Shown: in pieces, positions 10,068 to 51,653 of the stretch
Numbering within the stretch: the stretch's first letter is position 1
Layout: the number at the start of each line of letters is the position of its first letter
Assembly: GCA_964593675.1 (NCBI GenBank)
Contig: CAZQIE010000005.1
Coordinates: forward strand, 4,994-68,993
Origin: an uncultured Opitutales bacterium
Lineage (GTDB): Bacteria > Verrucomicrobiota > Verrucomicrobiia > Opitutales > CAZQIE01
DNA: 64,000 nucleotides
Direction of reading: 5' to 3'
Made by a program: the position numbers and the translations under genes
The notes under the pieces: model-generated
Told to the model about the DNA's origin: nothing
Databases searched by the model: none
Seen by the model: the letters and a program-made list of their open reading frames with translations, nothing else

Positions 10068-10141
10068 GCGGGCGTAGTATAGAGGTAATACGTGAGCTTC
10101 CCAAGCTTGAATCGAGGGTTCGATTCCCTCCGCCCGCACCA
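10068..10141 (+). tRNA. tRNA-Gly (CCC)
   Basis: gcgggcgtagtatagaggtaatacgtgagcttcccaagcttgaatcgagggttcgattccctccgcccgcacca: acceptor stem gcgggcg/cgcccgc, anticodon loop ttCCCaa, T-loop ggttcgatt, encoded CCA end. Confidence 0.97.
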
Positions 10142-20179: not shown

Positions 20180-20193
20180 TTGACCCGAATCAA
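20180..20193 (+). promoter_or_regulatory. FNR/DNR-type (CRP-FNR family) binding site upstream of hcp
   Basis: TTGAC-CCGA-ATCAA, one mismatch to TTGAT-N4-ATCAA. A second TTGAT half-site starts at 20214. Confidence 0.65.
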
Positions 20194-28617: not shown

Positions 28618-29334
28618 TCAGGCCCCGCGCCGCCGTCGCCCGAGCAAAGCCGCGCCAAGGCTGAGAACGCCGAAAGCGGCGGCATAGGTGGAGGGTTCAG
28701 GCACCGGTGAGCCTTGAAGGTAGAGGGCGTCTACGCGAAGCGTGGAGCTGTAGGCCTCGAGAAAGGTGAGCTTCAGGCGCGTGTCCCCCGGAGCAAGGTT
28801 GATGCTGCCACGGTTCGACCACCACGAGGTCGTCGAGTCGCCCGACCCGTTCCAGGCATCGCCGAGGCTCGGGAGGCTGCCAGCGCCGTACGGGCCTTGC
28901 ACAACCTGAAGATTCGACGGAATACCCGTCTCTATCTGGTAGTTCATGAGCGCCGTCGTGCTCGGCGACGTGGTCGCCGAAACAGCCAGATAAACGGTAT
29001 AGGCGCCAGCTGAGAGCCCGAGGCTGCTGAGGTTCCACGTCAACGCGGCATTGGTAACATGCCCAGCGCCCGGATCCTGGAAATAGTGGAAATTCGCGAA
29101 GTCGCCGCTTGTGCCCGTGTACGTTGCCGTGGCAAAGGCGTATCCAACGCTTGAATACTGGTTCGCTGCGGATGAACTGGCCTCGGCCTCAAGAAACGCG
29201 CCCGCATACTGGGTGGGATCCAGGCCGGACGGCAGGTTTGCCCGGATGGCTGCATGCGCCAGTGTGGCGCTGAAAAGGAATCCAAAGGCGGTTGCTAGGG
29301 TTACAGAAATGCCATCGAGTTTGGGTATGCTCAT
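28618..29334 (-). CDS. PEP-CTERM surface protein with a beta-sandwich (golvesin/Xly-CTD-like) domain
   Basis: Signal peptide; C-terminal PVPEPSTYAAAFGVLSLGAALLGRRRR. Domain call is a low-confidence pattern match. Confidence 0.85.
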   Translation of the reverse strand: MSIPKLDGISVTLATAFGFLFSATLAHAAIRANLPSGLDPTQYAGAFLEAEASSSAANQYSSVGYAFATATYTGTSGDFANFHYFQDPGAGHVTNAALTWNLSSLGLSAGAYTVYLAVSATTSPSTTALMNYQIETGIPSNLQVVQGPYGAGSLPSLGDAWNGSGDSTTSWWSNRGSINLAPGDTRLKLTFLEAYSSTLRVDALYLQGSPVPEPSTYAAAFGVLSLGAALLGRRRRGA

Positions 29335-29428: not shown

Positions 29429-30127
29429 CTATTGCAGCGGGTGCTCTTTTAAGAGCTCCGGAGCCGTCCACGGCGTGCTGCGGTTCGACGCCTTCCGCAA
29501 TGCCGCCACCTTTTCTTCGCCAACAGGCTCTCCACCGTTCCACGTTGCCCGAACATAGGACGCCACACCTGCGATATCCCTGTCCTTGAGGGCCGAGAAT
29601 GAAGGCATGCTCCCGTTATACTCACCGCCCTTTACCGTTATTGGGCCGGATAGGCCTGCCAGCAGAATCTTGATAAAGCGTTCTTCGGACCCCTTCACCC
29701 ACTCGGAATCCACGAGCGGCGGATATGTCCCGGGGAGCCCCTGGCCCGTAAGCTGATGGCATTGTGCGCAATTGTTTTTGAAAATGCGCTCCCCATGCTT
29801 CACGGGATCGAAAGCAACAGCCGTTGCCGCCCCGGCTTCTCCTTGGCCCGGCTTCCAACGCGGGTCTGTAATCGCCGGATTGAAGTCGCCGGAGTGGTTC
29901 GCGAAATAAATCCCGCCCCAGAACATCAGGCCCGCAAAAAGGAAAATGAGGAAGATGGGCGTAGGCGCAAACCCCTCCCGCGGCTCCTCCTTCTCGCGCA
30001 TGAGCTGCGTGTGCGTGGCCTGCATGGCGTCATCGGCAAACCCTGCGGGTTCAGCGGTCGGACGCAGCGGGGTGCGGCTCGTGTCAGACGGCCCGCCAGT
30101 GGCTGGTTGTTGAGGCTCTTCGCTCAT
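29429..30127 (-). CDS. Membrane-anchored monoheme cytochrome c (CcoP-like position)
   Basis: One TM helix (TPIFLIFLFAGLMFWGGIYF), single CAQCH, distal Met in GSMPSF; last gene of the operon. Confidence 0.88.
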   Translation of the reverse strand: MSEEPQQPATGGPSDTSRTPLRPTAEPAGFADDAMQATHTQLMREKEEPREGFAPTPIFLIFLFAGLMFWGGIYFANHSGDFNPAITDPRWKPGQGEAGAATAVAFDPVKHGERIFKNNCAQCHQLTGQGLPGTYPPLVDSEWVKGSEERFIKILLAGLSGPITVKGGEYNGSMPSFSALKDRDIAGVASYVRATWNGGEPVGEEKVAALRKASNRSTPWTAPELLKEHPLQ

Positions 30128-30163
30128 TTGCGCGCAACTCGGGGAAATTCGGAGGGGCTAAAT

Positions 30164-30793
30164 TTAGGGCTGGGCGAACTTCGACTCCGGCAGTTCGTAG
30201 TCCAGCCGCAGGCTCAGCAGGTAGGCAACGAGGGCGCGGGCCCGGTCCGTCGGCACCACCTCAAACCCAGCAGGCGGTCCCTTCTTGTAATCGGGGGGAA
30301 ATCGCAATGCTTCCGGAGACGAAATGTCGCGGACCTTCCGCGTTTCGAACAAATAGGCAAACGGCGGCATGATCGAGCCTTTGCTCGTGATCTGTGGATC
30401 GTAAAGGTGCAGGAGATGCCAGTCAGGCGTCGAGAGGCGCTGCCCCACGTTGGTGAGATCCGGTCCCGTGCGGGACGTGCCAAGCAGCACGCGGTCCTGC
30501 AGGATGTAATCACGCGGCACCGTGTTGCGGTCGCCCCACCCGCGCTCGAAATCCGCTCCGAACCCCTTCCGACGCACCTGCTGTGAATGACAGTAGACGC
30601 AACCTTCCGAGATATACACGGCCCGCCCCTGGGCGGCCACCCCGGGTATGGGCCTCGGATAGGCCTGTTCGCCCTCGGACAGCGCGGCGGGCTGTAAATT
30701 GCCGTATTGGATCTGACTGCTCAGCACCAGCCCCGTCCAGGACAGGGCGATCGTAAAGAAGATGCCGAAAAAGATGAGGGGCAGGTTCTTCAT
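30164..30793 (-). CDS. ccoO: cbb3-type cytochrome c oxidase subunit II
   Basis: [46 protein letters not shown] overlaps the ccoN stop (ATGA). Confidence 0.93.
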
Positions 30794-32262
30794 GCCGCAC
30801 CTCCTGAAAGGTTCGTTGAAAACAGCGTGGGCCCGGTCCGCCCTTCCACACTCTTCTTTGATAGGAGCATCCAGAAGAAATTGATCGCAAAGGCGAGATG
30901 GCCGATGCCCATCATCGCGCCGCCCACGGAGCGGCTCACCAGCCACGGGACGAGGTTCTGCACAATCGTCAGGAAAGGCACTTCAGGGTTATTCAGCTCC
31001 AGCCCCTGCTGCCAGCCTCCCGCATGGAGCCCGATCATATAGATCATGATGCCCACAGCTGTACCGTAAAAATGGATACGGATGAGCGCCGCGGACGGCC
31101 ATTCGCGCAAGAGCAGCCGGGGCATCATGAAGTAGATGCTGCCGAACATGATCATCGTGAAGAAGGCGTAGGCGCCATGGTGCGCATGCGCGACCGTGAA
31201 CTGCGTGAAGTGCGTGATCACGTTTACCTCAGGCAACGCCATCGCAGACCCGGCCAGGCTGACGACCGTGTAGTTCATCGCGCCAAAAACGATGAAACGC
31301 AGGGTCGGGCTTGCCCACACCGCCTTGAAACTCCCCACCACCGTCATGTGATGGTTGATCGCGGTGATTACCACCGGCACCACCATCATCACGCTGGCAA
31401 CCGTGCCCGCAGCCTGCAGCCAGATCGGTATGGGGCCGCCAATCAGGTGATGCACCCCCGCCCAATTGTAGAACAGCGCAAGCGTCCAGAACCCGAGAAG
31501 CGACAGGTAGTAGCTGTAGATCGGCCGCCCGAGCACCTTCGGGATGAAATAATACGCGGCGGCCAGCGCCATCGGCGTCAGCCACAGGCCCAGAACGTTG
31601 TGCGCAAACCACCAGTTCGTGATCGCCTGCACCGTACCGCGCGCAGGTTCCCACAGGATCATCATCTGCGCCACCGTGTAGAGCCACGGAAACCAGAACA
31701 CCGCGCCAAGGATATACCACTGGGAAACGTAGACGTGGCCGGCCTGACGATGCTGGAACGTGACCACCGCCCACGCCCCCACCAGGGCGTAAGACAGCGC
31801 AAGGACCGGCGCAACCTGGGGCGGCATTTCCAGCCACTCAACGGACGTCAGGCCGCCGTCGAGTATGCCCAGCACGCCCCACGTAAGACCCGCATTATAG
31901 AACAGGCCGGCAAAATACAGGATGCCACCATGCCTGACCGGGGCCCGGCACAGGCGCGCCATGATCCACAAACCGACGGCGAAAATCGCGTTGTTCCCCC
32001 AGCCATAGGCGACGGCATTGAGGTGCGCCGAGCGCACGCGCCCGAAAGTCAGCCACTCGTGTGCTCCGAGGAAATTGGGGTTGTGCAGCTTGATCGACGC
32101 GATCATCGCCAGCAGCGACCCCACCAGGAGCCACAGGATGCCCGACGCCAGAAACAGCAGGGCAGGCCCCCGCAAGCTGCGGTCGATTTGAAAGAGCTGC
32201 ACCCGTTCCCGAGAGACGGTTGCGGCTTGAGGGTCAATGGAGGCTGAGGCCTGGGCGCTCAT
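30790..32262 (-). CDS. ccoN: cbb3-type (family C) heme-copper oxidase subunit I
   Basis: [30 protein letters not shown] (CuB histidines and helix-7 Tyr), AHAHHG heme ligands; multiple TM helices. Confidence 0.93.
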
Positions 32263-32267
32263 GCAAA

Positions 32268-32495
32268 TTACGTTGTGCCGCCGGTTGGGTTCGCGGGCTT
32301 CTGTTTCTTACGGCCAGGAAAGAAATCAATCTGGCTCCCTGCGGGTTCGTCTTCAGAAAACACGCTCATCGCCCCGCGGTCGAGGTTTCTGAACTGCCCC
32401 GTGCGCTGCGCCCAAACGAAGGCGGCGACCACCGAGACGAAAAACAACACGCCCAGGCCAAAAATGATAATGAGATACAGGTTCCAGGTTTCCAT
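32268..32495 (-). CDS. ccoS: cbb3 oxidase assembly protein CcoS
   Basis: Single TM helix followed by WA…GQFRNLDRGAMSVF..DEP. Confidence 0.82.
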   Translation of the reverse strand: METWNLYLIIIFGLGVLFFVSVVAAFVWAQRTGQFRNLDRGAMSVFSEDEPAGSQIDFFPGRKKQKPANPTGGTT

Positions 32496-32507
32496 GGAGG
32501 AAGGCGC

Positions 32508-32852
32508 CTACGGCGCGGGCGCACGTTGCGGCTCGCTCGTGTCCGCTGCCATGCCTTGGCGGGCGACAATCAGGTTCATGGCCACCTCGACCGGTATGCG
32601 CACCGTGCCGGCCTTCTGGTCCACCCAAGCGTACGTCGTGGCCGCTTCGTCTTCCTTCGCACGCAACTCCTTCAGCACGTCCAGACGCTTCTGTATCGTG
32701 GCCCGATCCACCGGCGCAGGGCGGTTCGGGAGGTAAGCGATCACCAGGATCACCAGGAACAGGCCCATGCACGCGAGCGTGGCGAGGACGCTGATCGTAA
32801 GGTTCCGCGCCTTTGGTTCCGGCGCGTCATGGGCCTCATGCTCGTTACTCAT
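32508..32852 (-). CDS. actG: ActG-like alternative complex III subunit
   Basis: One TM helix plus YAWVDQKAGTVRIPVEVAM motif; start overlaps the actF stop by 8 nt. Confidence 0.65.
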   Translation of the reverse strand: MSNEHEAHDAPEPKARNLTISVLATLACMGLFLVILVIAYLPNRPAPVDRATIQKRLDVLKELRAKEDEAATTYAWVDQKAGTVRIPVEVAMNLIVARQGMAADTSEPQRAPAP

Positions 32853-34161
32853 GGTAATGGATGCTCTCCAGAATGCGGGGGTCGTGAATCGGTATGGGCT
32901 GGGCCTTGGGCACGCTGCGCAGGAACGCCCACACGCAGAGGCCTCCAAGCCCCACAATCGACGCAAGGTCCCAGACCGTGACGCTGAATTCCGTCACCCG
33001 GAACCCCATCGGCGCCATCGGGTCCGGCACACGCGAGGGCAGGATGTTGAAATAGAGGTCAACAATGTGGAAAACGAGAATCCAGGCGCTAATGAACAGG
33101 ATGCGGCCCGAGATGACCTTGTTCCGGTACCCAAGGAGGTACAGGAACGGGATGAGGAAGTAACCCAGGATCACCCCGTAGAGGCTTACCCACCACCATG
33201 AGTTCTTAGAGACGCCGTCGGCCCCGAATTCGCGGATGTTGTACCAGAACGTTTCCTCCGGGATGTTCGCGTTATAGATCAGGAAATACTGGGAGAAGCT
33301 GATATACGCCCAAAAGATCGTGAACGCCAGGCTCATGCACCCGAGCATATAGAGGTGCGGGCGGCCAAACAGCCCCCCTTTAAGGTGGCCGCGGGCAGCC
33401 AGGATCAGGCCCAGAATGACCGTCGCTGCAAGGCCCGCCCGGATAGACGTGGCGAAGAACCACACGCCATACATCGTCGAGAACCACTCGTAGGAGAGGC
33501 TCATGAACAGATCGAACGCGGCAAAGGTCGTCGCTAGGGCGCACAGGATGATCCCGGCAGCCGAAATCTTCCGCGCACGCAGGACCCAGCGGGTGTCGGG
33601 CTCCGTGTCCATGCGGAACGAGCAACGGCGCAACAGGGCCGACAGGCCGCAAAAGACCAGCGCGTAGAGCGCCACGCGGGCGGTGAAAAATTCCCGGTTC
33701 AGGTAGCTTTGCTTGTGCAGGTAGAGCGGGTCCTCCGCCACCGCGTGCCCCCCGGCCTTGACGGCATGGGGATCGAGCCACTTCCACAAAAGGCCTGCGT
33801 TTTCCTGCCCAAATACGCCCCAGCCCGTAAGCACCAGCGGCACGAGGGCGAGAAACAGCCACGGGAAGGCCGAAAGGGCGTGCTCAAGCTGACGGCGGAT
33901 CGTGATGGGCCAGCCGGCGTCGAAGATGTAGAACATCTGCACCAGGAAGATCATCCCGATGCCAATCGAGAACCAGAAACCAAAACCGAGCAACCAGCCG
34001 AAAAGCGGCCGGTTGTCGTGCTGCTGAAGCCCCAGGAAAAGCCCGAAGGTGCCGATCGCGAGCCCGATAAGCCCCACGACCAACGCGAGAATCCCGAGTT
34101 TTGAGCGCGTGTGGTTGCCCATCGCGTCAGAGGGGGCAGAAATGGCGGCGGATGAACTCAT
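32845..34161 (-). CDS. actF: Alternative complex III membrane subunit F
   Basis: About 10 TM helices; GW…RRQLE, DLFMSL…WFSTMYG, WAYISFSQYFLIYNANIPEET.WY. Confidence 0.9.
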   Translation of the reverse strand: MSSSAAISAPSDAMGNHTRSKLGILALVVGLIGLAIGTFGLFLGLQQHDNRPLFGWLLGFGFWFSIGIGMIFLVQMFYIFDAGWPITIRRQLEHALSAFPWLFLALVPLVLTGWGVFGQENAGLLWKWLDPHAVKAGGHAVAEDPLYLHKQSYLNREFFTARVALYALVFCGLSALLRRCSFRMDTEPDTRWVLRARKISAAGIILCALATTFAAFDLFMSLSYEWFSTMYGVWFFATSIRAGLAATVILGLILAARGHLKGGLFGRPHLYMLGCMSLAFTIFWAYISFSQYFLIYNANIPEETFWYNIREFGADGVSKNSWWWVSLYGVILGYFLIPFLYLLGYRNKVISGRILFISAWILVFHIVDLYFNILPSRVPDPMAPMGFRVTEFSVTVWDLASIVGLGGLCVWAFLRSVPKAQPIPIHDPRILESIHYHE

Positions 34162-34814
34162 AGCCCAAGCTTTGCACGTTGGTCGGCCGGCACGTCCGTT
34201 ACTTTCGCGTTCTGCGAAAGCTGGAGCGCGCGCAGGTAGGCGATCACAGCCCAGCGTTCCTCAGGCTGGAGCTTGTCGCCATACGGGTTCATGGTGTTGC
34301 GGCCGTTTGTGATGACGTTGAAAATCTCGCCTTCAGGCATCACGCGGAGGCGGTCCTGATGGTAGGTGGGCGTCGCCAACATCCCATACTGCTTGGTGAT
34401 CCCGTTGCCGTCCCCCACCGCACCGTGGCACACCGCGCAGTAGATGTTGAACTTCTCGCGTCCCAGCGCCATCAACCGGTTGTCCACGGGAACAGGGTAG
34501 CCGCGGTAAAAGGAGCCATCCGGAGCCTTGCCGGAAAACAGGGCCGGATTGCGCGAGGGCGCATGGACAAAGTCCGCCGAGAAGACCGGCTTCATGTCCC
34601 AGCCGTAACCACGCAGGACGGTGCCGCCGGGGACAGGCCGGTCGTTCATACCGTCCTGGAAAAAGTTGTTTGAAGCCTGCGGGTTGTACCGGGGCTGGTA
34701 GTCCATATCGGGGAACACCATCAGCGGCGGCTTTTCACTTTTTGCGCCACGGAAGCCGGCGATCGAAACGACCGTTACGATCAGGAGCGCAAGAAACAGC
34801 AGAAAGTAGCGCAT
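34158..34814 (-). CDS. actE: Alternative complex III monoheme cytochrome c subunit E
   Basis: DMDYQPRYNPQ, RPVPGGTVLRG, CAVCHG, GEIFNVITNG…MNPYG…ERWAVIAYLRALQ. Confidence 0.9.
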   Translation of the reverse strand: MRYFLLFLALLIVTVVSIAGFRGAKSEKPPLMVFPDMDYQPRYNPQASNNFFQDGMNDRPVPGGTVLRGYGWDMKPVFSADFVHAPSRNPALFSGKAPDGSFYRGYPVPVDNRLMALGREKFNIYCAVCHGAVGDGNGITKQYGMLATPTYHQDRLRVMPEGEIFNVITNGRNTMNPYGDKLQPEERWAVIAYLRALQLSQNAKVTDVPADQRAKLGL

Positions 34815-34815
34815 G

Positions 34816-35358
34816 TTACTTTTCCACAGGCGTTATGTCGCGGCCCCCGAGGGTCTCGAGGAAAGCGCGGGTTTTTTCGGGATCAAACTTCGGGTCCGCA
34901 GTCTCAATCACGATGAAGAACGTATCGTCCGACGCCCGCGAGAACCGCTCGTTGTTGAAGACGGGGTGGTAGTGCTGCGGCAGGAAGTTGGTGAGGAACT
35001 GGCCAAAGAAAGTGCCGAACGCGGCGAGGAGAATCGTGAGCTCATAGAAGACCGGGAACGGGAAGATCGGGCTCCAGTACGGCTTGCCACCGACGATGAG
35101 CGGGTAGTCGTAGGCGTTCATATACCAGGTGATCAGCAGGCCCGTGCAAAAGCCCGTCAGGCCACCGAGAAGCGTCAGGCGCGGCACTTTCGAGCGCGTC
35201 AGGCCCATGGCAGCGTCCATGCCGTGCACCGGGAAGGGCGTGAAGACATCCCAGCGTGTATAGCCGGCGTCACGCACCTTTTCCGCGGCCTGGTAGCACG
35301 CCGGTGTGGTGTCGAAGGCGACCATGAGGCCGAAGGTGGGAGGGGTCGTGTCAGGCAT
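34816..35358 (-). CDS. actD: Alternative complex III subunit D (DUF3341)
   Basis: [26 protein letters not shown]…[18 protein letters not shown]. Confidence 0.9.
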
Positions 35359-35370
35359 CGTTCGCGCGTC

Positions 35371-36843
35371 CTAGTGTGCGGGTTGATGGCCTTCGCGGCT
35401 GGGCCCATGGCCGGCTTCTGTTTGGGAACCGCCGTGCCCGTGGGCACTCGCCTGCGGCGTCACCGCCTTGAGTTCGGCAATGGGCATAAGGGGCAGGAAC
35501 TTCAGGAACAACAGGAACAGGACCGAGAAGAACCCGAACGTTCCGAAAAAGGTGAAGATGTCGACCACCGTGGGCGAATAGTAACCCCAAGCCGACGGCA
35601 AAAAGTCGTTCGCCAGCGACGTGACGGTGATCACGAAACGCTCAAACCACATGCCGATGTTCACGAAAATCGAGATGACCCACACAAGCGCCGGGTTCTC
35701 GCGCACACGCTTGAACCAGAAAAGCTGCGGGCTGATTACGTTGCAGCTAACCATGATCCAGTAAGCCCACGCGTACTGGCCGAAGGCGCGGTTGATGAAA
35801 GCGAAGCCCTCAAACGGGTTGGCACCATACCACGCGATGAAAAACTCCATCGCGTACGCGTAGCCCACCATCGAACCCGTCGCCAACGTGATCTTGCACA
35901 TGCAGTCGATGTGGTACTGCGTGATCAAGTCGTGCAGCCGGTACACCGCCCGCAGCGGCAGCATGAGCGTCAGCACCATCCCGAAGCCCGAGAAGATCGC
36001 GCCAGCAACGAAGTACGGCGGGAAAATCGTCGTGTGCCAGCCTGGCAGTTGTGACGCCGCGAAGTCGAACGACACGATCGTGTGCACCGAAAGCACCAGG
36101 GGGGTCGAAAGGCCCGCCAGGAGCAGGTAGGCCATTTCGTAGTTGCGCCAATGGCGGTTCGAGTTGCGCCACCCCATCGACAGGATGCCGTAGAAGTATT
36201 TCCGCCAGACCGCCTTCGCGCGATCACGCAGCGTGGCGAGATCCGGCACCATGCCCATGTACCAAAACAGGAGCGACACCGTGAAGTACGTGGACACCGC
36301 AAACACGTCCCACTCCAGCGGGCTGCGGAACTGCGGCCAGATGGTGTTCCAGTTCGGCAGCGGGAACAGCCACCACCCGAACCACACACGACCGATGTGG
36401 AAGAGCGGGAAGATACCCGCGCAGCACACGGCGAAAATCGTCATAGCCTCCGCCGTTCGATTGATCGACGTGCGCCACTTCTGCCGCAACAGGCACAAGA
36501 TCGCGGAAATCAGCGTGCCCGCGTGGCCTATACCGATCCAGAACACGAAGTTCACAATCGCCCAGCCCCAGAACACCGGCGTGTTCAGGCCCCAGACCCC
36601 CACGCCGGTGGACACCTGATAGGCCAGGCCGATGCCCGTGAACGACGCAATGCTGAGCGCCAGGAAGAACAGGATCCACCACCACCGCGGAGCCGGGTCT
36701 TCGACGATCCGGCACACCTTTTCCGTTATCCAGTGAAAGGACCGGTTGTTTGCGACGAGCACGCGCCGCGGCATCGACACAGGCTTCACCTTGTCGAGGA
36801 CTGCCGGGCGCGGCAGCGCCGATTCTTGCGAGGACATCGCCAT
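35371..36843 (-). CDS. actC: Alternative complex III subunit C (NrfD/polysulfide reductase family)
   Basis: [77 protein letters not shown]. Confidence 0.95.
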
Positions 36844-36857
36844 GTTTGCGCGTTAAG

Positions 36858-39800
36858 CTAGTGTTTTGTTCCGTTGGGCGCGTGAGCCGGACCGTGACCG
36901 CCTTCCGGCGTCGGTTGGCCCTGCGTGCCATGCGCGGCTCCGTGACCGGCCTTTCGGTCATACTCGGCGCGGCTGAGCGGTTGGGCCGTGTAGTCCGGCA
37001 TGGCCGGGTTCGGATTACGCAGACGGGCGAGGTACGTCACACGCGGGCGCGTGTTCAAATACCCGAGCACCGAGTAATCGCGGTCCGACTGCTTGATGCG
37101 GTAAACTTCGCTCGTCGTGTCCGTTATGTCCCCGAACACGATGGCCCCCGCAGGGCAGGACTGCTGGCACGCCGTCTTGATCGTCCCGTCCGGAACGTGG
37201 ACGTTGCCCGAGTCCTTCGCCTTGACGCGCTGGTTGATCCGGCCTTCCTCGACGCGCTGGACGCAGAACGTGCATTTCTCCATCACGCCGCGCATGCGGA
37301 CGGTGACGTCCGGATTGCGCTGCATCTTCGGTAGCTCGCCCGAGGGCAGCTTGTAGTTGTCCGGACCCAGCGGGCCTTCGTAGAAGTGGCCGGGCTGGCG
37401 CTTGTTCCAATCAAAGAAGTTAAAGCGACGGACCTTATAGGGGCAGTTGTTCGCGCAGTAGCGCGTGCCCACACACCGGTTATAGGCCATCGTGTTGATG
37501 CCCATCTCGTCGTGGACAGTCGCGTTCACCGGGCAGACATACTCGCACGGCGCGATCTCGCAGTGCTGGCACAGCATGGCCTGGAAGACGACTTGCGGGT
37601 CCTCCGGAATATCCCGCGTGTCTTCCGACGCGCTTGAAAAATAGCGGTCGATGCGGAGCCAGTGCATCTCGCGACCGCGCAGCACCTGGTCTTTGCCGAC
37701 GATCGGCACGTTGTTCTCGCTCTGGCAGGCGACGACGCACGCGTTGCAGCCGATGCACGTGTTGAGGTCGATGCTCATGCCCCACTGTTGGGGCGGCACC
37801 CATTGCTCCGCGGCGCCCGGCTGGTTCCACACGGCCACGTTCGGCGCCGGCGCACCGAAATCGGGCGTCTTGAAGGCGGAATTCCCGCGCGGGATGGTCA
37901 GCGCCTTCTGCTCCATGGACAAGCCCTGCTGCGCGCCGTAAATGGGCGGCGAATGGCTCTCCACACCCATCTTTTTCGCGAAATCCGGGTGCTTCTGGTA
38001 ATCGTCAACATTCGCCTCGCGCACGATATCCCGGCCTTCCATCGACCAGTGCATCTGCGTGTTCGCGAGCGCGAAGGTTCCGCCGGTAAGGCGCAACTTC
38101 GCTCCCGTGGCAAACGCGGTCGAAGCCGACGTGCGCAGGGGGTAAGCCGAGAAGCCAGCGCCCTCCCCTACCCGCCCCACGGTCGCCCGGCCATAGCCGA
38201 GTGCGATCACCACCGTGTAGTCCGGCAGCCCCGGCATCACGCTCAGCGGGCCACGGACGGTGCGGCCGTTGACGGAAAGCTCGCCCACCTTTGCAAGCTC
38301 ATGGTTCTTTTCGGACTGCGCCATCGGCGCGTGGAGCTGCTGCTTCTCCACAAGGAAACCCGGCTCCGGTATGATCCCAAGCTCGCGGCCCAGTTTCGGG
38401 CTCACGAGGATCGCGTTATCCCAGGAAAGGCGCGTCATCGGGTCCGGCACTTCCTGCATCCACCCGTTGTTCGCAAAGCGGCCATCCCACGTGTGCAGGC
38501 TCGGCACCAGCCGAACCTCCAGCGCCTGGGCTGACACCGCGGGAACTTCGGGCGCGACCGGCTGCTGGCTCAGCACAGCCAGGAGCGCAGGCGCGGCGAG
38601 GCGCGCTTCCGGGTATTCTGTATTCGGCCAGACGCCTTCTGCGAGCCAGGTCTCAAAGTCCGCCCCCGAACCCTTTGCCTGCGCCTGAAAGGTTTCGCGT
38701 ACGATCGCGTACGGGTCGGGGTTTGTCTCTCCCGCGAGCCGGGCCAGCACTTCCAGTTCGCTCTGACCGTCGAAGAGCGGCAGGATCATCGGCTGCACCG
38801 GCACGTACACGCCGTCAAAGGTGCGGCCGTCGCCCCAGCTCTCAAGGTAATGCGTAGCGGCAAGGAAGACGTGCGCCGCCGCGGAGGTCTCGTCCGCCCG
38901 GAACCCATAGTAGCCGTGACGGATGACTTGCGGCAACTTCTTCAGCACTTCCGCGAACGCGAGATCCGCGGGCGCGTCGTAAACGGGATTTCCGCCCAGA
39001 ACGACGAGCGTGCGCACAGTCCCCCGGTTTGCGGCGTCCACGAGGTCGCGCAGCGACGCCGGTTCCGGCTCGTCCGTTACGCGCACGTACGACACCGTCT
39101 GCCCCTGGCCGCCCAGCGCGACGTTCATCGCGTGGACGAGGATCTGGACTTCCTCCGGCAGGTGCGAGCCCGCCACCACGACCGAGGCGCCCCGGTTCGC
39201 CAGCAGGTCCCGCGCGCATTCCACCACCCACTTCGGGTTGCCGCCCGCGGCACGCGCACGGTCCCGCAGGTGGGAAATAAGCGTGGAATCGCCCCCCGTG
39301 CCAGCCAGGATCTCCGCGGCAAAGAAGCATGCAAGCGCCGGAAGGCGGCTCGCCGCGATGCGCAGGCGGTGGTCCGCGTTCGAGCCGGTGACCGAGAACG
39401 TGCTTTCCGCCACGTAGAGACGGCTCATCTGGTCCGCCTCCTTCGCGTTCAGGATGCGGCGGCTGTCGGCATACCCCCGTGCGTACGCAAGGGCGCCCGC
39501 CTCGGCGCTCAGGAAGTCGGCGTCGAGCGACAAAATGCGCTTCGCCTTCCCAAAATGGTAAATTGGGCGCAACCGGCCATTGCCAAGCTTTGCCAGCGCA
39601 CGCTCCGGCCCCGCCAGATCCACAGGCGTGTACTCGGCATACAAAAGCTCCGGAAACCGCCGCCGCAAGGCCTGGAGCAAACGGGCACGGGACGGCGACG
39701 AACTCGGCTCCACGAGGATGGCGAGCCCGCGGCCCCGTTCGCCCTCAAACGTGCGCCCGAGTGTCGCGAGGAGGTCCGCAACAGCCGCGCGGTTCAATGC

Positions 39801-40289
39801 GGCGCCCGTCCTGTCCGCGCTGCCAGCCGCACGGTCGGGATCGTAAAGGTCGAGGATGCTCGCCTGCGTAAACGCGTCCGTTGTGCCCGCAAAAGGCCGG
39901 TAACTCGGGTTGCCCTCAACCTTCGTGGGCCGGGCCTGATGCGTCTCAACGACGAGCGGGATATGCTCGTGTGGCCCCGGCCGCGACGTCGCGTAGTACA
40001 TCGGCACGCCCGGAACCACCCTCTCCGGCTGCTTCCCGTAAGGGAGGATCTTCGATTCCGGCTGGCGGCAACCGGCGAGGCCCAGGCCCGCGAGCCCGAA
40101 CGACGCCGCCATGATCTTCACGAACTGGCGACGGTTCACGCCTTCCAGTTCCGACGCTCCGGCGGGAAACTCCCGGTGCAGCCATTCCTTAAACTCGGGC
40201 GTCTCGGACAACTCATCCAGACTGCGCCAGTATTTCGGACCGGTTACGTGATCAGGACCGGGTTCGGGATGTTCAAACTTGCGCTTCAT
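36858..40289 (-). CDS. actB: Alternative complex III subunit B (Tat-exported molybdopterin-oxidoreductase-like domain plus Fe-S domain)
   Basis: YWRSLDEL…REFP extended leader, Tat motif NRRQFVK, lipobox LAGC, Fe-S motifs CIGCNACVVAC, CQHC..APC..VCP, CVGTRYCANNCP, CTFC…CQQSCP. Confidence 0.95.
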   Translation of the reverse strand: MKRKFEHPEPGPDHVTGPKYWRSLDELSETPEFKEWLHREFPAGASELEGVNRRQFVKIMAASFGLAGLGLAGCRQPESKILPYGKQPERVVPGVPMYYATSRPGPHEHIPLVVETHQARPTKVEGNPSYRPFAGTTDAFTQASILDLYDPDRAAGSADRTGAALNRAAVADLLATLGRTFEGERGRGLAILVEPSSSPSRARLLQALRRRFPELLYAEYTPVDLAGPERALAKLGNGRLRPIYHFGKAKRILSLDADFLSAEAGALAYARGYADSRRILNAKEADQMSRLYVAESTFSVTGSNADHRLRIAASRLPALACFFAAEILAGTGGDSTLISHLRDRARAAGGNPKWVVECARDLLANRGASVVVAGSHLPEEVQILVHAMNVALGGQGQTVSYVRVTDEPEPASLRDLVDAANRGTVRTLVVLGGNPVYDAPADLAFAEVLKKLPQVIRHGYYGFRADETSAAAHVFLAATHYLESWGDGRTFDGVYVPVQPMILPLFDGQSELEVLARLAGETNPDPYAIVRETFQAQAKGSGADFETWLAEGVWPNTEYPEARLAAPALLAVLSQQPVAPEVPAVSAQALEVRLVPSLHTWDGRFANNGWMQEVPDPMTRLSWDNAILVSPKLGRELGIIPEPGFLVEKQQLHAPMAQSEKNHELAKVGELSVNGRTVRGPLSVMPGLPDYTVVIALGYGRATVGRVGEGAGFSAYPLRTSASTAFATGAKLRLTGGTFALANTQMHWSMEGRDIVREANVDDYQKHPDFAKKMGVESHSPPIYGAQQGLSMEQKALTIPRGNSAFKTPDFGAPAPNVAVWNQPGAAEQWVPPQQWGMSIDLNTCIGCNACVVACQSENNVPIVGKDQVLRGREMHWLRIDRYFSSASEDTRDIPEDPQVVFQAMLCQHCEIAPCEYVCPVNATVHDEMGINTMAYNRCVGTRYCANNCPYKVRRFNFFDWNKRQPGHFYEGPLGPDNYKLPSGELPKMQRNPDVTVRMRGVMEKCTFCVQRVEEGRINQRVKAKDSGNVHVPDGTIKTACQQSCPAGAIVFGDITDTTSEVYRIKQSDRDYSVLGYLNTRPRVTYLARLRNPNPAMPDYTAQPLSRAEYDRKAGHGAAHGTQGQPTPEGGHGPAHAPNGTKH

Positions 40290-40292
40290 GGG

Positions 40293-40946
40293 CTAGCGGT
40301 GGCAACCGGAGCAGCTTTGCGGGGGCGTGATTTTCCAGTCGTGGACAAATTTTGTGCCCATCTCGATTTGCTTTTCGGGAGTCTCGGCTTTCCAGTTGAG
40401 GTTCGTGACCTGGTCGACAGGGCGCACAAATCGTTCCGGGCTGCGGTGGCAGTCCAGGCAAAAGGCCATCGTCAGCGGCTTTGACCGGAATACCACCGGC
40501 ATCTCGTTGACCTGACCGTGGCAGTCCACACAGCTTACCCCGCGGTTCACGTGCACGGCGTGATTGAAATACACAAAGTCTGGCATGCGGTGAACCCGCA
40601 CCCACGGAACCGCCTTCCCGGAAGCCGCGCTCTCCCGCACCACCGCGAGCAACGGGCTGTCCGGCCTCACGGCGTTGTGGCAGTTCATGCACGTCGTTGC
40701 CGACGGCACGTTCGCGTGCTCCGACCGCGTGACGTTGCTATGGCAGTAGCGGCAATCCAGCCCCAACTGGCCGACGTGGAGGCTGTGATCATACGGAACC
40801 GGCTGCACCGGCTGATACCCCACGTCCGCGTATTTCGGGGTCGCGTAATACCAGATGCCACATGTCACGGTTGTGACAAAAAGCGCAAGGGCTGCCGCGA
40901 GCTTCAACGGAACCGCGTTTGCCCATTTGGGAAAGATGTTTGCCAT
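40293..40946 (-). CDS. actA: Alternative complex III pentaheme cytochrome c subunit A
   Basis: N-terminal TM helix and five CxxCH motifs (CRYCH, CMNCH, CVDCH, CLDCH, CSGCH). Confidence 0.95.
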   Translation of the reverse strand: MANIFPKWANAVPLKLAAALALFVTTVTCGIWYYATPKYADVGYQPVQPVPYDHSLHVGQLGLDCRYCHSNVTRSEHANVPSATTCMNCHNAVRPDSPLLAVVRESAASGKAVPWVRVHRMPDFVYFNHAVHVNRGVSCVDCHGQVNEMPVVFRSKPLTMAFCLDCHRSPERFVRPVDQVTNLNWKAETPEKQIEMGTKFVHDWKITPPQSCSGCHR

Positions 40947-40996
40947 GCGTCGCTTGGTTTCCTGCTGCGCGTCCTGATTGTGGGCGCCCCGATGCC

Positions 40997-41191
40997 CTAG
41001 GCCTGGGGCCTGGCAACGGCGCGCGGCTCCTTTCGGGCCGCATAGGGCAGCGGTTCGGGCTCCGGATGGCCGGCTTCCGCCGCTTCCGCAGGCCTCGGGC
41101 GTATCCCGAAACGTGAAAGCAGCCCAGCCGCCAACGCAGCCAGCCCTAGGCTTTTCAGAAATGTCTTTCGGTCAGATGTACCGGCAGCCAT
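40997..41191 (-). CDS. Small Tat-signal-like protein upstream of actA
   Basis: 64 aa: SDRKTFLK, hydrophobic SLGLAALAAGLL, AEA-type cleavage site, 20-25-aa Pro/Arg-rich tail; 50 nt from the actA start. Confidence 0.5.
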   Translation of the reverse strand: MAAGTSDRKTFLKSLGLAALAAGLLSRFGIRPRPAEAAEAGHPEPEPLPYAARKEPRAVARPQA

Positions 41192-41306: not shown

Positions 41307-41320
41307 ATGACCACCATCAA
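41307..41320 (-). promoter_or_regulatory. FNR-like box upstream of the ACIII-cbb3 operon
   Basis: Minus strand TTGAT-GGTG-GTCAT versus consensus TTGAT-N4-ATCAA (two mismatches in the right half). Confidence 0.45.
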
Positions 41321-41741
41321 TTCGCCTAATGGCACAACATCCAGGGCCGTTATCCGGCTAAGAAACGCTGTGCCTTGGGGCTAGGAAACGCTGGCCAGAA
41401 AAGAACCGAAACAGACGGGCGTTTGCTCACGCCCAGTAGAAACAAAAAGCCCCAGCTAAGCAAGCGCGCCGAAAGGAATCCCTGCGAATCCGTGGGAGCT
41501 CGTAACGTCTAGAGCACATGCAGTTCAAGTTGTCCCATCAATAGCCGGGCCTTTTTCGCCCGCGGCGACGCGAGGCTGCGGCGTCCACGCTCGCCAAAGG
41601 GCCGCATTCCGAGTCGTGCAGCCAAAAGATACGGACCAAGCCGTGCGTCGTCGCCGCAGCATCGGCGTAAGCGACGACTTGAAATGGAACTACGCCAAGC
41701 GGCCAACGCCACGAAACGACTCCACCTGAGCAACCGAGGGC

Positions 41742-42677
41742 TCAGGTCCCCTCGATCATCTTGAACGCAAGCGTGAGGCCCCGGTAGGGCGTGCCCTTCG
41801 GGTGCGGGCGTGCCGCCGCGTTCTTCAAGGCGTCCAGCACGGACTGGTCGAACGCGGGCATTCCGGAAGATTGCGTGATCCTGCCGTTCACGATCTTCCC
41901 GCTCGCAAGGACGTCAAACTCCGCAACCGCGACAAGCTGGCGCCCCATGAGCTCCTGCGGCTTTTCCCAAGCCACGTCGATCGCCTTCTTGAGCCCATTG
42001 AAAAAAGCAGCCTCCAGCGGGTCGCCCTGTTGGCCACCGCCGCCATTCCCTGTTCCGCCCTCGACACCACCACCCGCGGGCCCGTCGCCACCGCCACCGG
42101 GTGTCTTTCCAATGCCCGTCATGTTCGCGAAAGCCTCGCGTAGTGCCTTCGCATCGACTTTGGTTCCGGGAGGCGCCGTGCCCTGCGAGCCCGACGTTTG
42201 CGGCTTCGCCTTGCCTGACGTCGTCTTCCCCTGAGATTTCAGAAAATCCTCGTAGCTCATCTTCGAGGATTCCTTCGCGTCCTTGGCCGGCTTTGTGGCT
42301 GTCGGGGTCGGCGCGGCCTTGTCGTCCGCTTTAGGTTGGGTCTTGGACTTTGTCGGCGTCGCCTCAGGCTCGGGGTCGACGGGGAGGTCCGGAATGACCG
42401 GCTTCTTGATATCCGGCAGCGGCGGAAGCTTCTTCATGTCCAGCTTCACGTCACCACGCCCACCCTTCGGTCCTGGTCCCGCGCCACGCCCGGGCCCCGG
42501 AGGCGGCGGCTCGCCAGGCGGCATGTTCACGAGCGTCATTATCGTCTGCCCAGGCTCGGGCGGCGTGCGGAACTGTGCCAGATAAACGGACCCGACAAGC
42601 AGGCCAAAACCCAGGAAGTGGAGCCCCAGAGATATGAGGAATCCCTTCTTCTCAGATTGATCGACGACGGCACCCAT
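41742..42677 (-). CDS. TonB/TolA-like energy transducer
   Basis: N-terminal TM helix with SLGLH (S-H motif), Pro/Lys/Gly-rich spacer, TonB-C-like end (ITQSSGMPAFDQSVLDAL). Confidence 0.85.
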   Translation of the reverse strand: MGAVVDQSEKKGFLISLGLHFLGFGLLVGSVYLAQFRTPPEPGQTIMTLVNMPPGEPPPPGPGRGAGPGPKGGRGDVKLDMKKLPPLPDIKKPVIPDLPVDPEPEATPTKSKTQPKADDKAAPTPTATKPAKDAKESSKMSYEDFLKSQGKTTSGKAKPQTSGSQGTAPPGTKVDAKALREAFANMTGIGKTPGGGGDGPAGGGVEGGTGNGGGGQQGDPLEAAFFNGLKKAIDVAWEKPQELMGRQLVAVAEFDVLASGKIVNGRITQSSGMPAFDQSVLDALKNAAARPHPKGTPYRGLTLAFKMIEGT

Positions 42678-42680
42678 GAC

Positions 42681-43100
42681 CTACTTAACCTGCGTGTCAA
42701 AACTGATTTTGGTGAGGTTCGCGGCCTTCACCTTGTCCATCAGGTCTATGACCTTCTGGTAAGGAATGCCCGAGTCCGCGCGGATGCTCAAAACTGGCGG
42801 GTCGGTCTTGATCGAAAGGTCACGCAGTAGCTGCTCCAGCTTCGAAGCTGAAACCGGCTGGTCGCCCCAGAAATATTGGCCGGTCTTGTCGATCGAGACC
42901 GCCTGGAACTGCACCTTCTCGGGCCGGCGCGAACTTGTGTTCTGCCGCTGCTCAGGCAGGTCGATGGAAATCGTCTGCTCCAGCAACGGCGTGGTGATCA
43001 TGAAAATGATCAGCAGGCAGAACGTCAGGTCCAGCAGAGAGGTGACGTTGATCTCCGCGAGAGCCGTCGTTTCGCGCTTGCGGTGAAAGCTTCGTGCCAT
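42681..43100 (-). CDS. ExbD/TolR biopolymer transporter
   Basis: AEINVTSLLDLTFCLLIIFMIT; SIRADSGIPYQKVIDLMD. Confidence 0.92.
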   Translation of the reverse strand: MARSFHRKRETTALAEINVTSLLDLTFCLLIIFMITTPLLEQTISIDLPEQRQNTSSRRPEKVQFQAVSIDKTGQYFWGDQPVSASKLEQLLRDLSIKTDPPVLSIRADSGIPYQKVIDLMDKVKAANLTKISFDTQVK

Positions 43101-43124
43101 GACGGGCGGGGCCGCTCGGACCCT

Positions 43125-46695: not shown

Positions 46696-46708
46696 GACAA
46701 AGCGCCCG

Positions 46709-47734: not shown

Positions 47735-47761
47735 GTAAAACGAATCGGTCGTTAGCTCCCA

Positions 47762-51500: not shown

Positions 51501-51653
51501 TGTTGCCTCGTTACATTCCGAGACCGATGCCAGGCCCGGCGTTCGCCCGCACACTCTCCCGGTTTGACTTGCCACTTTCGCGACTTATCTAGGGCGGGAG
51601 GCGCACGCCGCGATTCACGCGGTCCGGGCCTAAGGGGATCGGCGGAAGATATT

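What the first reader, a model, noticed from the sequence alone, without database searches (positions are those of the whole stretch)
29429..41191. Alternative complex III and a cbb3 oxidase encoded as one tightly coupled superoperon
actA-B-C-D-E-F-G-ccoS-ccoN-ccoO-cyt c run on one strand with gaps of at most 36 nt and several overlaps. Structurally characterised ACIII supercomplexes pair with aa3/caa3-type (family A) oxidases. Coupling to a high-affinity family C oxidase implies a quinol:O2 supercomplex for microaerobic life. Similar clusters may already be noted in Opitutaceae genomes, but I know of no biochemical characterisation of this pairing.
Basis: partly seen in the sequence, partly recalled or inferred. 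Interest (0 to 1): 0.72.

Follow-up and report, generated by a model that had tools for sequence, protein, structure and literature searches.

The report
ACIII plus cbb3 oxidase respiratory operon
This is a real, tightly packed operon encoding a quinol-oxidising complex (alternative complex III) followed directly by a high-affinity cbb3-type oxygen reductase; this gene arrangement is already published for Opitutaceae and verrucomicrobial methanotrophs, but no one has studied the pairing biochemically.

Summary
On the minus strand, 29429-40946 encodes ActA-B-C-D-E-F-G, CcoS, CcoN, CcoO and a membrane-anchored monohaem cytochrome c. Gaps range from -8 to +36 nt. A conserved 64-aa Tat-signal-like ORF (40997-41191) lies just upstream.

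CcoN is a family-C oxidase, not an NO reductase. All haem and CuB ligands and the helix-VII Tyr are present, and it matches only cbb3 chains in the PDB.

The same gene order occurs in 80 of 80 Opitutia genomes sampled, in two Gemmatales planctomycetes, and in 42 of 44 metagenome loci with enough upstream DNA.

The adjacency is not new. Schmitz 2021, citing Refojo 2010, reports it for Opitutaceae and verrucomicrobial methanotrophs. I found no structure or biochemical study of the pairing.

Unexpected support for physical coupling came from relatives outside the window. Many ACIII operons carry a CcoN that has lost its metal ligands and has no CcoS. These operons keep CcoO and the cytochrome c, and the ligand-less CcoN is under purifying selection (dN/dS 0.04-0.30).

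Verdict: this is an ordinary new member of a known cluster type. The supercomplex idea is plausible but untested.

The parts
40997..41191 (-). Small 64-aa ORF with a Tat-signal-like N-terminus (SDRKTFLKSLGLAALAAG) and a conserved C-terminal ARKEPRAV motif. It is a probable first gene of the operon. Function unknown.
   Evidence: An HMM built from orthologues hits 47 related loci. Every hit is on the operon strand directly upstream of ActA, with none elsewhere in six-frame ORFs of all loci. Only weak family hits: TIGR02811 E=0.04 for the window protein, NF038009 E=4.5e-4 for an orthologue. GC3 is only 0.65.
40293..40946 (-). ActA, pentahaem cytochrome c with an N-terminal membrane anchor (217 aa).
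   Evidence: Five CxxCH motifs. Pfam Cytochrome_C7 and related families. Orthologues at 53-67% identity in the same position in the Opitutia loci.
36858..40289 (-). ActB, fused B1 (molybdopterin-oxidoreductase-like) and B2 (Fe-S) subunit, 1143 aa, with a Tat-variant signal.
   Evidence: TIGR04519 Tat-variant region at residues 18-58, Fer4 domains at residues 836-1089, QrcB/QrcC-like matches.
35371..36843 (-). ActC, NrfD-type membrane subunit carrying the quinol site (490 aa).
   Evidence: 622 bits to R. marinus ActC chain 6f0k_C. The residues aligned to its Asp169 and Ser245 are conserved as D179 and S252 (with for their role).
34816..35358 (-). ActD (180 aa).
   Evidence: Pfam PF11821 ActD, 215 bits, E=4.9e-64.
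34158..34814 (-). ActE, membrane-anchored monohaem cytochrome c (218 aa).
   Evidence: One CxxCH motif. Pfam Cytochrome_CBB3 and Cytochrom_C.
32845..34161 (-). ActF, second NrfD-like membrane subunit (438 aa).
   Evidence: 149.5 bits, E=1.4e-42, to R. marinus ActF chain 6f0k_F. It also hits the ActF chains of 8k9e, 6lod and 6btm. No Pfam model matches.
32508..32852 (-). ActG homologue, a single-pass membrane protein (114 aa). Its start overlaps the ActF stop by 8 nt.
   Evidence: The single sequence matches ActG chain 8k9e_G at E=0.17. A 30-sequence family profile matches it at E=9.7e-6, through the shared motif Y..(V)..G.V.IP..RAM.L.V. Present in 76 of 80 Opitutia loci by tblastn.
32268..32495 (-). 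CcoS (FixS), cbb3 maturation factor (75 aa).
   Evidence: Pfam PF03597, 29.2 bits, above its cut-off of 23.1. TIGR00847 scores 24.2, just below its cut-off of 28.35. In related metagenome loci its presence tracks an intact CcoN ligand set: 24/28 against 1/16, Fisher p=2e-7.
30790..32262 (-). CcoN, catalytic subunit of a family-C (cbb3-type) haem-copper oxidase (490 aa).
   Evidence: Pfam COX1, 262 bits. The best NCBIfam model is ccoN TIGR00780 at 234 bits, below its equivalog cut-off of 583. It matches only cbb3 CcoN chains in the PDB, E=1e-57 to 3e-46, with no NorB chain even at E<=10. H80, H221, Y265, H271, H272, H359 and H361 are all present.
30164..30793 (-). CcoO, monohaem subunit II (209 aa). 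Its start overlaps the CcoN stop by 4 nt.
   Evidence: Pfam FixO, 86 bits. E=2e-18 to CcoO chain 8smr_F. One CxxCH motif.
29429..30127 (-). Membrane-anchored monohaem cytochrome c (232 aa) that takes the place of the dihaem CcoP.
   Evidence: The best NCBIfam model is ccoP TIGR00782, E=2e-12, aligned only to profile positions 109-202 of 285. The haem domain scores higher with the cytochrome domain of Cu nitrite reductases and with T. thermophilus c552 than with the solved CcoP chains. The N-terminal anchor has an invariant R-E-x-x-E-P motif with no detectable CcoP counterpart. Present after CcoO in every locus long enough to show it.
41416..41435 (-). Terminator-like hairpin after the upstream TonB gene. 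It probably marks the 5' limit of the operon's transcription unit.
   Evidence: Consensus scan only. The total number of such sites in the region is no more than chance.

Best explanation
This stretch is one respiratory operon that takes electrons from menaquinol to O2. Shown from sequence: it encodes a complete alternative complex III (ActABCDEFG) with the quinol-site residues intact. It also encodes the cbb3 maturation factor CcoS, and a three-subunit family-C oxidase made of CcoN with all haem b, haem b3 and CuB ligands, monohaem CcoO, and a membrane-anchored monohaem cytochrome c in place of dihaem CcoP. Inferred path: ACIII oxidises menaquinol at ActC. Electrons pass through the ActB Fe-S clusters to the ActA pentahaem and the ActE monohaem. 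They then reach the anchored cytochrome c and/or CcoO, then haem b and the haem b3-CuB site of CcoN, where O2 is reduced. Also inferred: the 11 or 12 genes are co-transcribed. The two modules probably sit together in the membrane as a quinol:O2 supercomplex (my estimate about 0.55). This would give an organism without a soluble-carrier step a high-affinity route to oxygen.
For: CcoN keeps every ligand and the family-C Tyr. Gaps are -8 to +36 nt, and there is no excess of promoter-like or terminator-like sites inside the cluster. The same order and strand occurs in 80/80 Opitutia loci, with CcoN identity down to 58%, and 53 of these loci have all 11 genes modelled. It also occurs in Telmatocola and Gemmata of the Planctomycetota. 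In metagenome loci, ActF lies upstream of an intact CcoN in 26/28 cases and upstream of a ligand-less CcoN in 16/16 cases. The evidence for physical coupling comes from the operons whose CcoN has lost its metal ligands. They have also lost CcoS (present in 1/16). They keep a full-length CcoN under purifying selection (dN/dS 0.04-0.30) and keep the haem motifs of CcoO (26/26) and the cytochrome c (22/22). A dead catalytic subunit kept inside the ACIII operon is easiest to explain as a structural part of one assembly. ACIII supercomplexes with caa3 and aa3 oxidases, likewise encoded downstream of the act genes, set a precedent.
Against: There are no transcript data, and nothing here tests protein-protein contact. 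No Act-Cco gene fusion was found among long relatives. The CcoS-CcoN gap reaches 512 nt in the Opitutia loci and is 317 nt in Gemmata, so a second promoter is possible. Two metagenome loci with enough upstream DNA (L148, L095) show no ActF hit upstream of an intact CcoN; only L148, with about 10 kb of upstream sequence, clearly lacks the act genes. The CcoN score is below NCBIfam's ccoN equivalog cut-off (234 against 583 bits), so its kinetic properties, including O2 affinity, cannot be assumed from the proteobacterial enzymes. The ligand-less operons are in other organisms, not in this window.
Confidence: 0.75

Rival explanations
1. The two complexes are co-expressed but separate. ACIII and the cbb3 oxidase share an operon only for co-regulation. 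Electrons pass between them by collision of the tethered cytochrome domains (ActE, the 232-aa cytochrome c) without a stable supercomplex.
For: Operon sharing alone does not prove contact. cbb3 oxidases elsewhere accept electrons from mobile or tethered cytochromes such as cyt cy. No Act-Cco fusion protein was found. In F. johnsoniae ActE is dispensable for electron transfer to aa3, so ACIII electron exit routes are flexible.
Against: This view does not explain why ligand-less CcoN proteins stay full-length, under purifying selection, in the ACIII operon in 16/16 loci while CcoS is lost. This CcoN clade sits next to the act genes in nearly every locus examined.
Confidence: 0.3
2. The oxidase module mainly scavenges O2 or detoxifies NO to protect an otherwise anaerobic or fermentative metabolism, rather than supporting microaerobic growth.
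For: From my own knowledge, not tested here: some Opitutaceae are described as anaerobes yet carry this cluster, and cbb3 oxidases have a side NO-reductase activity. The window also holds a hybrid-cluster protein gene with an FNR-like box upstream, and an O2-independent HemN-type gene. The TAV5 genome note interprets its cbb3 oxidase as serving oxygen removal.
Against: A complete, quinol-coupled, probably proton-translocating ACIII upstream fits energy conservation. CcoN has CuB ligands and the cross-link Tyr typical of O2 reductases, and no match to NorB.
Confidence: 0.12
3. The CcoN-like protein is an NO reductase or another non-oxidase member of the haem-copper superfamily.
For: The ccoN equivalog score is well below its cut-off. 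The nearest 50%-identity representatives are mostly ligand-less proteins.
Against: No NorB or other NOR chain is matched even at E<=10, while five sets of cbb3 CcoN chains match at E<=3e-46. All six His ligands and the helix-VII Tyr are present. The neighbours are CcoO (FixO) and CcoS, not NorC.
Confidence: 0.03

Closest known systems
ACIII-cbb3 gene clusters of verrucomicrobial methanotrophs (Methylacidiphilum) and Opitutaceae, as noted by Schmitz et al. 2021 (PMC8498564, citing Refojo et al. 2010) and Kruse et al. 2019 (PMC6688271)
   Same: The act genes lie directly next to genes for a cbb3-type oxidase in Verrucomicrobia. The published text already links this to the supercomplex idea.
   Different: This window comes from an organism whose CcoN is at most 72% identical to any protein found. 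Those papers give no subunit-level description (ActG, CcoS inside the cluster, monohaem CcoP replacement, upstream small ORF) and no biochemistry. They state the arrangement is limited to those two groups, whereas I also find it in Gemmatales.
ACIII-aa3 supercomplex of Flavobacterium johnsoniae (6BTM, EMD-7447) and ACIII-caa3 supercomplex of Rhodothermus marinus (6F0K)
   Same: Same ACIII core, ActA to ActF. ActC scores 540-622 bits and ActF 68-150 bits against those chains. The oxidase genes lie downstream of the act genes, and electrons pass directly without a soluble carrier.
   Different: The partner there is a family-A oxidase with CuA or a fused cytochrome c subunit II. Here it is a family-C oxidase whose entry point is c-type haems (CcoO and a monohaem cytochrome).
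Canonical proteobacterial cbb3 oxidase CcoNOQP with ccoGHIS (P. stutzeri 3MK7) and the bc1-cbb3 supercomplex of Rhodobacter capsulatus (6XKW)
   Same: CcoN and CcoO are homologous (E=1e-57 to 3e-46 for CcoN, down to 2e-18 for CcoO), with all cofactor ligands. CcoS is present.
   Different: There is no CcoQ and no dihaem CcoP. Instead there is a monohaem protein with an unrelated N-terminal anchor. No ccoG, ccoH or ccoI lies in the window. The quinol oxidase upstream is ACIII, not bc1. CcoN is only about 30% identical to the solved enzymes by my estimate from the alignment.
ActG of the ACIII structures 8K9E, 8K9F, 8X2J and 9ILT (source organism not checked here)
   Same: Similar length (112 against 114 aa), one transmembrane helix, and a shared C-terminal motif. 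Profile E=9.7e-6.
   Different: Similarity is low and detectable only with a family profile. The single sequence gives E=0.17.

Membership tests
Alternative complex III (Act) | ActA pentahaem cytochrome c | tested here: met
   Five CxxCH motifs in 217 aa, with multihaem Pfam families.
Alternative complex III (Act) | ActB with a molybdopterin-oxidoreductase-like B1 domain fused to an Fe-S B2 domain, carrying a Tat-type signal | tested here: met
   TIGR04519 at residues 18-58, a QrcB-like region at 110-566, and Fer4/QrcC-like domains at 836-1089. Individual cluster-binding cysteines were not counted.
Alternative complex III (Act) | Two NrfD-like membrane subunits (ActC and ActF), with the quinol-site Asp in ActC | tested here: met
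   ActC scores 622 bits to 6f0k_C, and D179 and S252 align with R. marinus D169 and S245. ActF scores 149.5 bits to 6f0k_F.
Alternative complex III (Act) | ActD and monohaem ActE | tested here: met
   PF11821 at 215 bits. ActE has one CxxCH motif and a cytochrome c domain.
Alternative complex III (Act) | Quinol:cytochrome c oxidoreductase activity | not testable with these tools
   Needs an enzyme assay.
ActG (accessory ACIII subunit) | Sequence homology to ActG of a solved ACIII, and a position after actF | tested here: met
   Profile A3 against 8k9e_G gives E=9.7e-6. The gene follows actF with an 8-nt overlap.
Family-C haem-copper oxidase (cbb3), subunit CcoN | His ligands of haem b, haem b3 and CuB, plus the helix-VII Tyr that cross-links to a CuB His | tested here: met
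   H80, H221, Y265, H271, H272, H359 and H361 align with the P. stutzeri motifs. The cross-link itself cannot be seen from sequence.
Family-C haem-copper oxidase (cbb3), subunit CcoN | Score above NCBIfam's ccoN equivalog cut-off (TIGR00780, 583 bits) | tested here: not met
   234 bits. It is a divergent clade of CcoN. Pfam COX1 is well above its cut-off at 262 against 34.8 bits.
Family-C haem-copper oxidase (cbb3) | Monohaem CcoO encoded next to CcoN | tested here: met
   FixO at 86 bits, one CxxCH motif, 4-nt overlap with ccoN.
Family-C haem-copper oxidase (cbb3) | Dihaem CcoP third subunit | tested here: not met
   The third gene has one CxxCH motif. It matches only positions 109-202 of the 285-position ccoP profile. 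Its N-terminal anchor has no detectable CcoP counterpart. From my own recollection of Ducluzeau et al. 2008, which I could not read here, CcoP is not universal among cbb3 oxidases.
Family-C haem-copper oxidase (cbb3) | High O2 affinity and O2-reductase activity | not testable with these tools
   Needs kinetic measurements. It should not be assumed for so divergent a CcoN.
Nitric oxide reductase (cNOR/qNOR NorB) | Closer sequence relationship to NorB than to CcoN, with a NorC partner | tested here: not met
   No NorB chain appears at E<=10 in the PDB search. No NOR model appears in NCBIfam at E<=0.01. The partner is FixO/CcoO.
CcoS/FixS maturation factor | Match to the family model | tested here: met
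   PF03597 at 29.2 bits, above its cut-off of 23.1. TIGR00847 at 24.2 is just under its cut-off of 28.35.
ACIII-oxidase supercomplex | Stable physical association of ACIII with the oxidase | not testable with these tools
   Only indirect evidence: near-obligate synteny, and retention of ligand-less CcoN in act operons.

The most novel reading that the evidence does not exclude
ACIII and this clade of CcoN-CcoO-cytochrome c form one obligate membrane assembly across PVC bacteria. In many lineages CcoN has become a cofactor-free scaffold. In those lineages ACIII has two extra c-type haem subunits but no oxygen chemistry. Public annotation calls these proteins 'cbb3-type cytochrome c oxidase subunit I', so they are misread as high-affinity oxidases. 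The window's operon would be the catalytically intact form of this assembly.
Probability: 0.45. Interest if true: 0.7.

Novelty: new member of a known kind. Interest (0 to 1): 0.42.

Why it matters
All solved ACIII supercomplexes involve family-A oxidases. An ACIII-cbb3 assembly would be a third way, besides bc1-cbb3 and ACIII-aa3, to wire quinol oxidation to O2, and the first for a CcoP-less family-C enzyme. It would bear on how abundant soil, freshwater, marine and gut Verrucomicrobia and Planctomycetes respire at low oxygen. There is also a practical point. Many close relatives of this CcoN lack every metal ligand yet are labelled cbb3 oxidase subunit I (K00404/COG3278). Marker-gene surveys that read ccoN as evidence of microaerobic respiration may therefore overcount in these phyla. 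For this window itself, the cluster is an expected housekeeping respiratory operon of an Opitutia-like bacterium.

Tried and rejected
1. NO reductase identity for CcoN is rejected.
2. Internal terminators or promoters that would split the operon: the consensus scan found no more sites than shuffled sequence gives, 16 against 14.4 terminator-like and 1 against 2.6 promoter-like.
3. A terminator between the cytochrome c gene and the downstream PEP-CTERM gene: none was found, and the RNA fold is no better than shuffles, z=-0.62. The 3' end of the transcript is therefore undefined.
4. FNR/CRP-type boxes: 13 matches against 10 expected. One 2-mismatch site at 41307-41320 lies upstream of the operon, which is not significant.
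5. Rfam: no RNA family occurs in or next to the cluster.
6. Homology of the cytochrome c N-terminal anchor to the CcoP anchor: a profile search found nothing.
7. Rosetta-stone fusions between Act and Cco proteins: the long relatives are CcoN-CcoO or CcoN-CcoO-cytochrome c fusions, or have unassigned extensions. The long stop-to-stop ORFs in metagenome loci are only upstream read-through.
8. The first metagenome query, with 22 diverse ligand-less sequences, had no usable conserved stretch, so a 7-sequence alignment was used instead.
9. Literature on an ACIII-cbb3 complex or a ligand-less CcoN: nothing in the searchable library. The TAV2 ecophysiology paper (PMC3749508) is not held. Refojo 2010 and Ducluzeau 2008 could not be read.
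10. Taxonomy of the ligand-less representatives: the cluster look-up gave almost no organism names.


Full report
**Observation.**
- ActA 40293-40946
- ActB 36858-40289
- ActC 35371-36843
- ActD 34816-35358
- ActE 34158-34814
- ActF 32845-34161
- a 114-aa gene 32508-32852
- CcoS 32268-32495
- CcoN 30790-32262
- CcoO 30164-30793
- a 232-aa cytochrome c 29429-30127

The successive gaps are 3, 14, 12, 1, -4, -8, 12, 5, -4 and 36 nt. GC3 is 0.69-0.85 in each frame.

**ACIII gene identities.**
- ActA has five CxxCH motifs.
- ActB (1143 aa) has a Tat-variant N-terminal region (TIGR04519) and C-terminal Fe-S domains.
- ActC scores 622 bits against R. marinus ActC chain 6f0k_C. It keeps the residues aligned with Asp169 and Ser245, which Sousa et al. 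place at or near the quinol site.
- ActD matches PF11821 at 215 bits.
- ActE is a monohaem cytochrome.
- ActF scores 149.5 bits against 6f0k_F.
- The 114-aa gene has no Pfam or NCBIfam match. A profile of 30 orthologues matches the ActG chain of 8k9e at E=9.7e-6, through a shared C-terminal motif.

**Oxidase gene identities.** CcoS matches PF03597 above its cut-off. CcoN matches COX1 at 262 bits, and its best NCBIfam model is ccoN. That score, 234 bits, is far below the equivalog cut-off of 583, so this is a divergent CcoN.
- In the PDB copy CcoN matches only cbb3 CcoN chains (E=1e-57 to 3e-46). It matches no NorB chain even at E<=10.
- The ligands of haem b, haem b3 and CuB, and the helix-VII Tyr typical of family C, are all present: H80, H221, Y265, H271, H272, H359, H361.
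- CcoO is a normal monohaem FixO protein.
- The third subunit is not a canonical CcoP. It has one haem, and it matches only positions 109-202 of the 285-position ccoP profile.
- Its haem domain scores higher with the cytochrome domain of Cu nitrite reductases and with c552 than with the solved CcoP chains.
- Its N-terminal anchor has an invariant R-E-x-x-E-P motif with no detectable CcoP counterpart.
- No ccoQ, ccoG, ccoH or ccoI lies in the window.

**Transcription unit.** This is inferred only. Promoter-like and terminator-like sites inside the cluster are no more frequent than in shuffled sequence. A terminator-like hairpin at 41435-41416 follows the upstream TonB gene. No terminator is visible between the cytochrome c gene and the next gene, a PEP-CTERM protein at 28618-29334. 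The next terminator-like site is at 28604-28589. The PEP-CTERM gene is not conserved downstream in any relative.

**Synteny survey.** A scan of GTDB species genomes with a CcoN alignment found 584 relatives, of which the tool returned the 80 best. All 80 are Opitutia, at 58-70% identity.
- In every one of them the genes found by tblastn lie in the window's order on one strand, as far as the contig reaches. In 53 loci all eleven genes could be modelled, and ActG is detected in 76.
- Median gaps are -4 to 25 nt.
- All 80 CcoN proteins keep the full ligand set.
- The nearest CcoN outside Opitutia (54% identity) is from the planctomycete Telmatocola sphagniphila. There and in Gemmata obscuriglobus the same operon occurs, with ActC and ActD fused and a P-type ATPase after the cytochrome c.
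- The remaining roughly 500 genomic relatives were not seen. The samples are the best-scoring hits, not random draws.

**An unexpected relative.** Among the 137 nearest full-length 50%-identity representatives of the window's CcoN, only 8 keep the complete ligand set (one more lacks only an unaligned first position). The rest have lost most or all of the His ligands and the Tyr.
- Four such proteins were looked up in their contigs. All four sit in the same place, ActA-F, ActG, ligand-less CcoN, CcoO, cytochrome c, and none has a CcoS gene.
- A metagenome scan seeded with ligand-less sequences returned 80 loci, 44 with an intact CcoN and 36 ligand-less.
- Among loci with at least 1.6 kb upstream, ActF is present in 26/28 intact and 16/16 ligand-less loci.
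- CcoS is present in 24/28 intact loci but only 1/16 ligand-less loci (Fisher p=2e-7).
- In the ligand-less operons CcoO keeps its CxxCH in 26/26 loci, the cytochrome c in 22/22, and ActA keeps five haems in 10/10.
- Ligand-less CcoN genes remain full-length, with dN/dS of 0.04-0.30 between pairs.
- The data sources annotate them as cbb3 oxidase subunit I.

A catalytic subunit that has lost its cofactors, and has lost its maturation factor with them, yet is kept under selection inside the ACIII operon, is most simply a structural component of a joint assembly. This is indirect evidence from other organisms.

**Literature.** Schmitz et al. 2021 state that in verrucomicrobial methanotrophs the ACIII genes lie directly adjacent to the cbb3 genes. 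Citing Refojo et al. [quoted passage not shown] They raise the point in the context of the F. johnsoniae supercomplex. Kruse et al. 2019 note the same co-location in Methylacidiphilum.
- Reviews and structure papers describe ACIII supercomplexes only with aa3 or caa3 oxidases.
- The PDB entries with ACIII chains are 6f0k, 6lod, 6loe, 6btm, 8k9e, 8k9f, 8x2j and 9ilt. The entries with cbb3 chains are 3mk7, 5djq, 6xkw, 6xkx, 6xkz, 8smr, 8snh, 9g6b and 9g83. The two lists do not overlap.
- Full-text searches found no paper on an ACIII-cbb3 complex or on ligand-less CcoN proteins. The library lacks most subscription journals.

**Mechanism.**
- Shown: the parts list of a complete ACIII and of an intact, CcoP-less family-C oxidase with its maturation factor, in one tightly spaced and deeply conserved gene string.
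- Inferred: co-transcription, and electron flow from menaquinol through ActC, the ActB Fe-S clusters, ActA and ActE, the tethered cytochrome c and/or CcoO, to haem b and then haem b3-CuB, where O2 is reduced.
- Inferred with less confidence (about 0.55): a stable supercomplex.
- Not supported by anything here: the actual O2 affinity, and the claim of a microaerobic lifestyle. The neighbouring O2-independent HemN-type gene and the hcp gene with an FNR-like box are compatible with life at low oxygen.

**Verdict.** The cluster is another member of a gene arrangement already noted in print for this very family, so its novelty is modest. The ligand-less CcoN operons found in relatives make that question more interesting and give a concrete way to test it.

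Noticed in passing
L084 10001-11482, L085 10001-11482, L086 10001-11440, L087 10001-11494, and 36 of the metagenome loci L088-L167; proteins P0122-P0270: A large, diverse family of CcoN-like proteins has lost the haem and CuB ligands. They sit in ACIII operons in place of CcoN, have no CcoS, keep CcoO and the cytochrome c intact, and are under purifying selection. Data sources annotate them as cbb3 oxidase subunit I. I found no description of them in the searchable literature.
   Followed up: partly
window 40997-41191 (-): A conserved 64-aa ORF directly upstream of ActA has a Tat-signal-like RKxFLK motif and a basic C-terminal motif. A family HMM finds it only at this position, in 47 related loci. 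It resembles in concept the small 'formate dehydrogenase region TAT target' proteins (weak hit, E=0.04). Function unknown.
   Followed up: partly
L081 5088-7091 and 13027-15828; L082 4451-6541 and 13414-16335: In the Gemmatales planctomycetes Telmatocola and Gemmata the same ACIII-cbb3 operon has ActC fused to ActD, and a P-type (CcoI-like) ATPase follows the cytochrome c. This extends the arrangement beyond the two verrucomicrobial groups named in the 2021 review.
   Followed up: partly
window 44781-52508: Haem biosynthesis genes cluster just upstream of the operon region: glutamyl-tRNA reductase 44781-46034, ferrochelatase 46709-47734, protoporphyrinogen-oxidase-like 47762-49114, radical-SAM HemN-type 49111-50472, and porphobilinogen deaminase 51378-52508 (+). 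This suggests a neighbourhood devoted to haem proteins.
   Followed up: no
window 41742-43853 (-): ExbB, ExbD and a TonB-like protein lie immediately upstream on the same strand. They are separated from the operon by about 550 nt that contain a terminator-like hairpin. They are not conserved next to the operon in relatives.
   Followed up: partly
window 20180-20193 and 20320-21978 (+): A hybrid-cluster protein (Prismane family) gene has a near-perfect FNR/CRP-type palindrome, TTGACCCGAATCAA, 127 nt upstream. This hints at oxygen- or NO-responsive regulation in this organism.
   Followed up: no
window 28618-29334 (-): A PEP-CTERM-anchored protein gene lies 94 nt downstream of the cytochrome c gene with no recognisable terminator between them. 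It may be co-transcribed here but is absent from this position in all relatives.
   Followed up: partly
L148 (CcoN at about 9986): This is one metagenome locus with a ligand-complete CcoN, CcoO and cytochrome c of this clade but no act genes in the 10 kb upstream. It is a rare exception to the linkage.
   Followed up: no
P0249, P0265, P0253, P0123: Natural fusions occur in this CcoN clade: CcoN-CcoO (706 and 667 aa) and CcoN-CcoO-cytochrome c (947 aa). P0123 has an unassigned 170-aa N-terminal extension. No fusion to an Act subunit was seen.
   Followed up: partly
window 10068-10138 (+) and 10214-15613 (-): A tRNA gene lies next to a 1799-aa secreted subtilase-like protein with PPC and Ig-like domains. 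It is unrelated to the finding.
   Followed up: no
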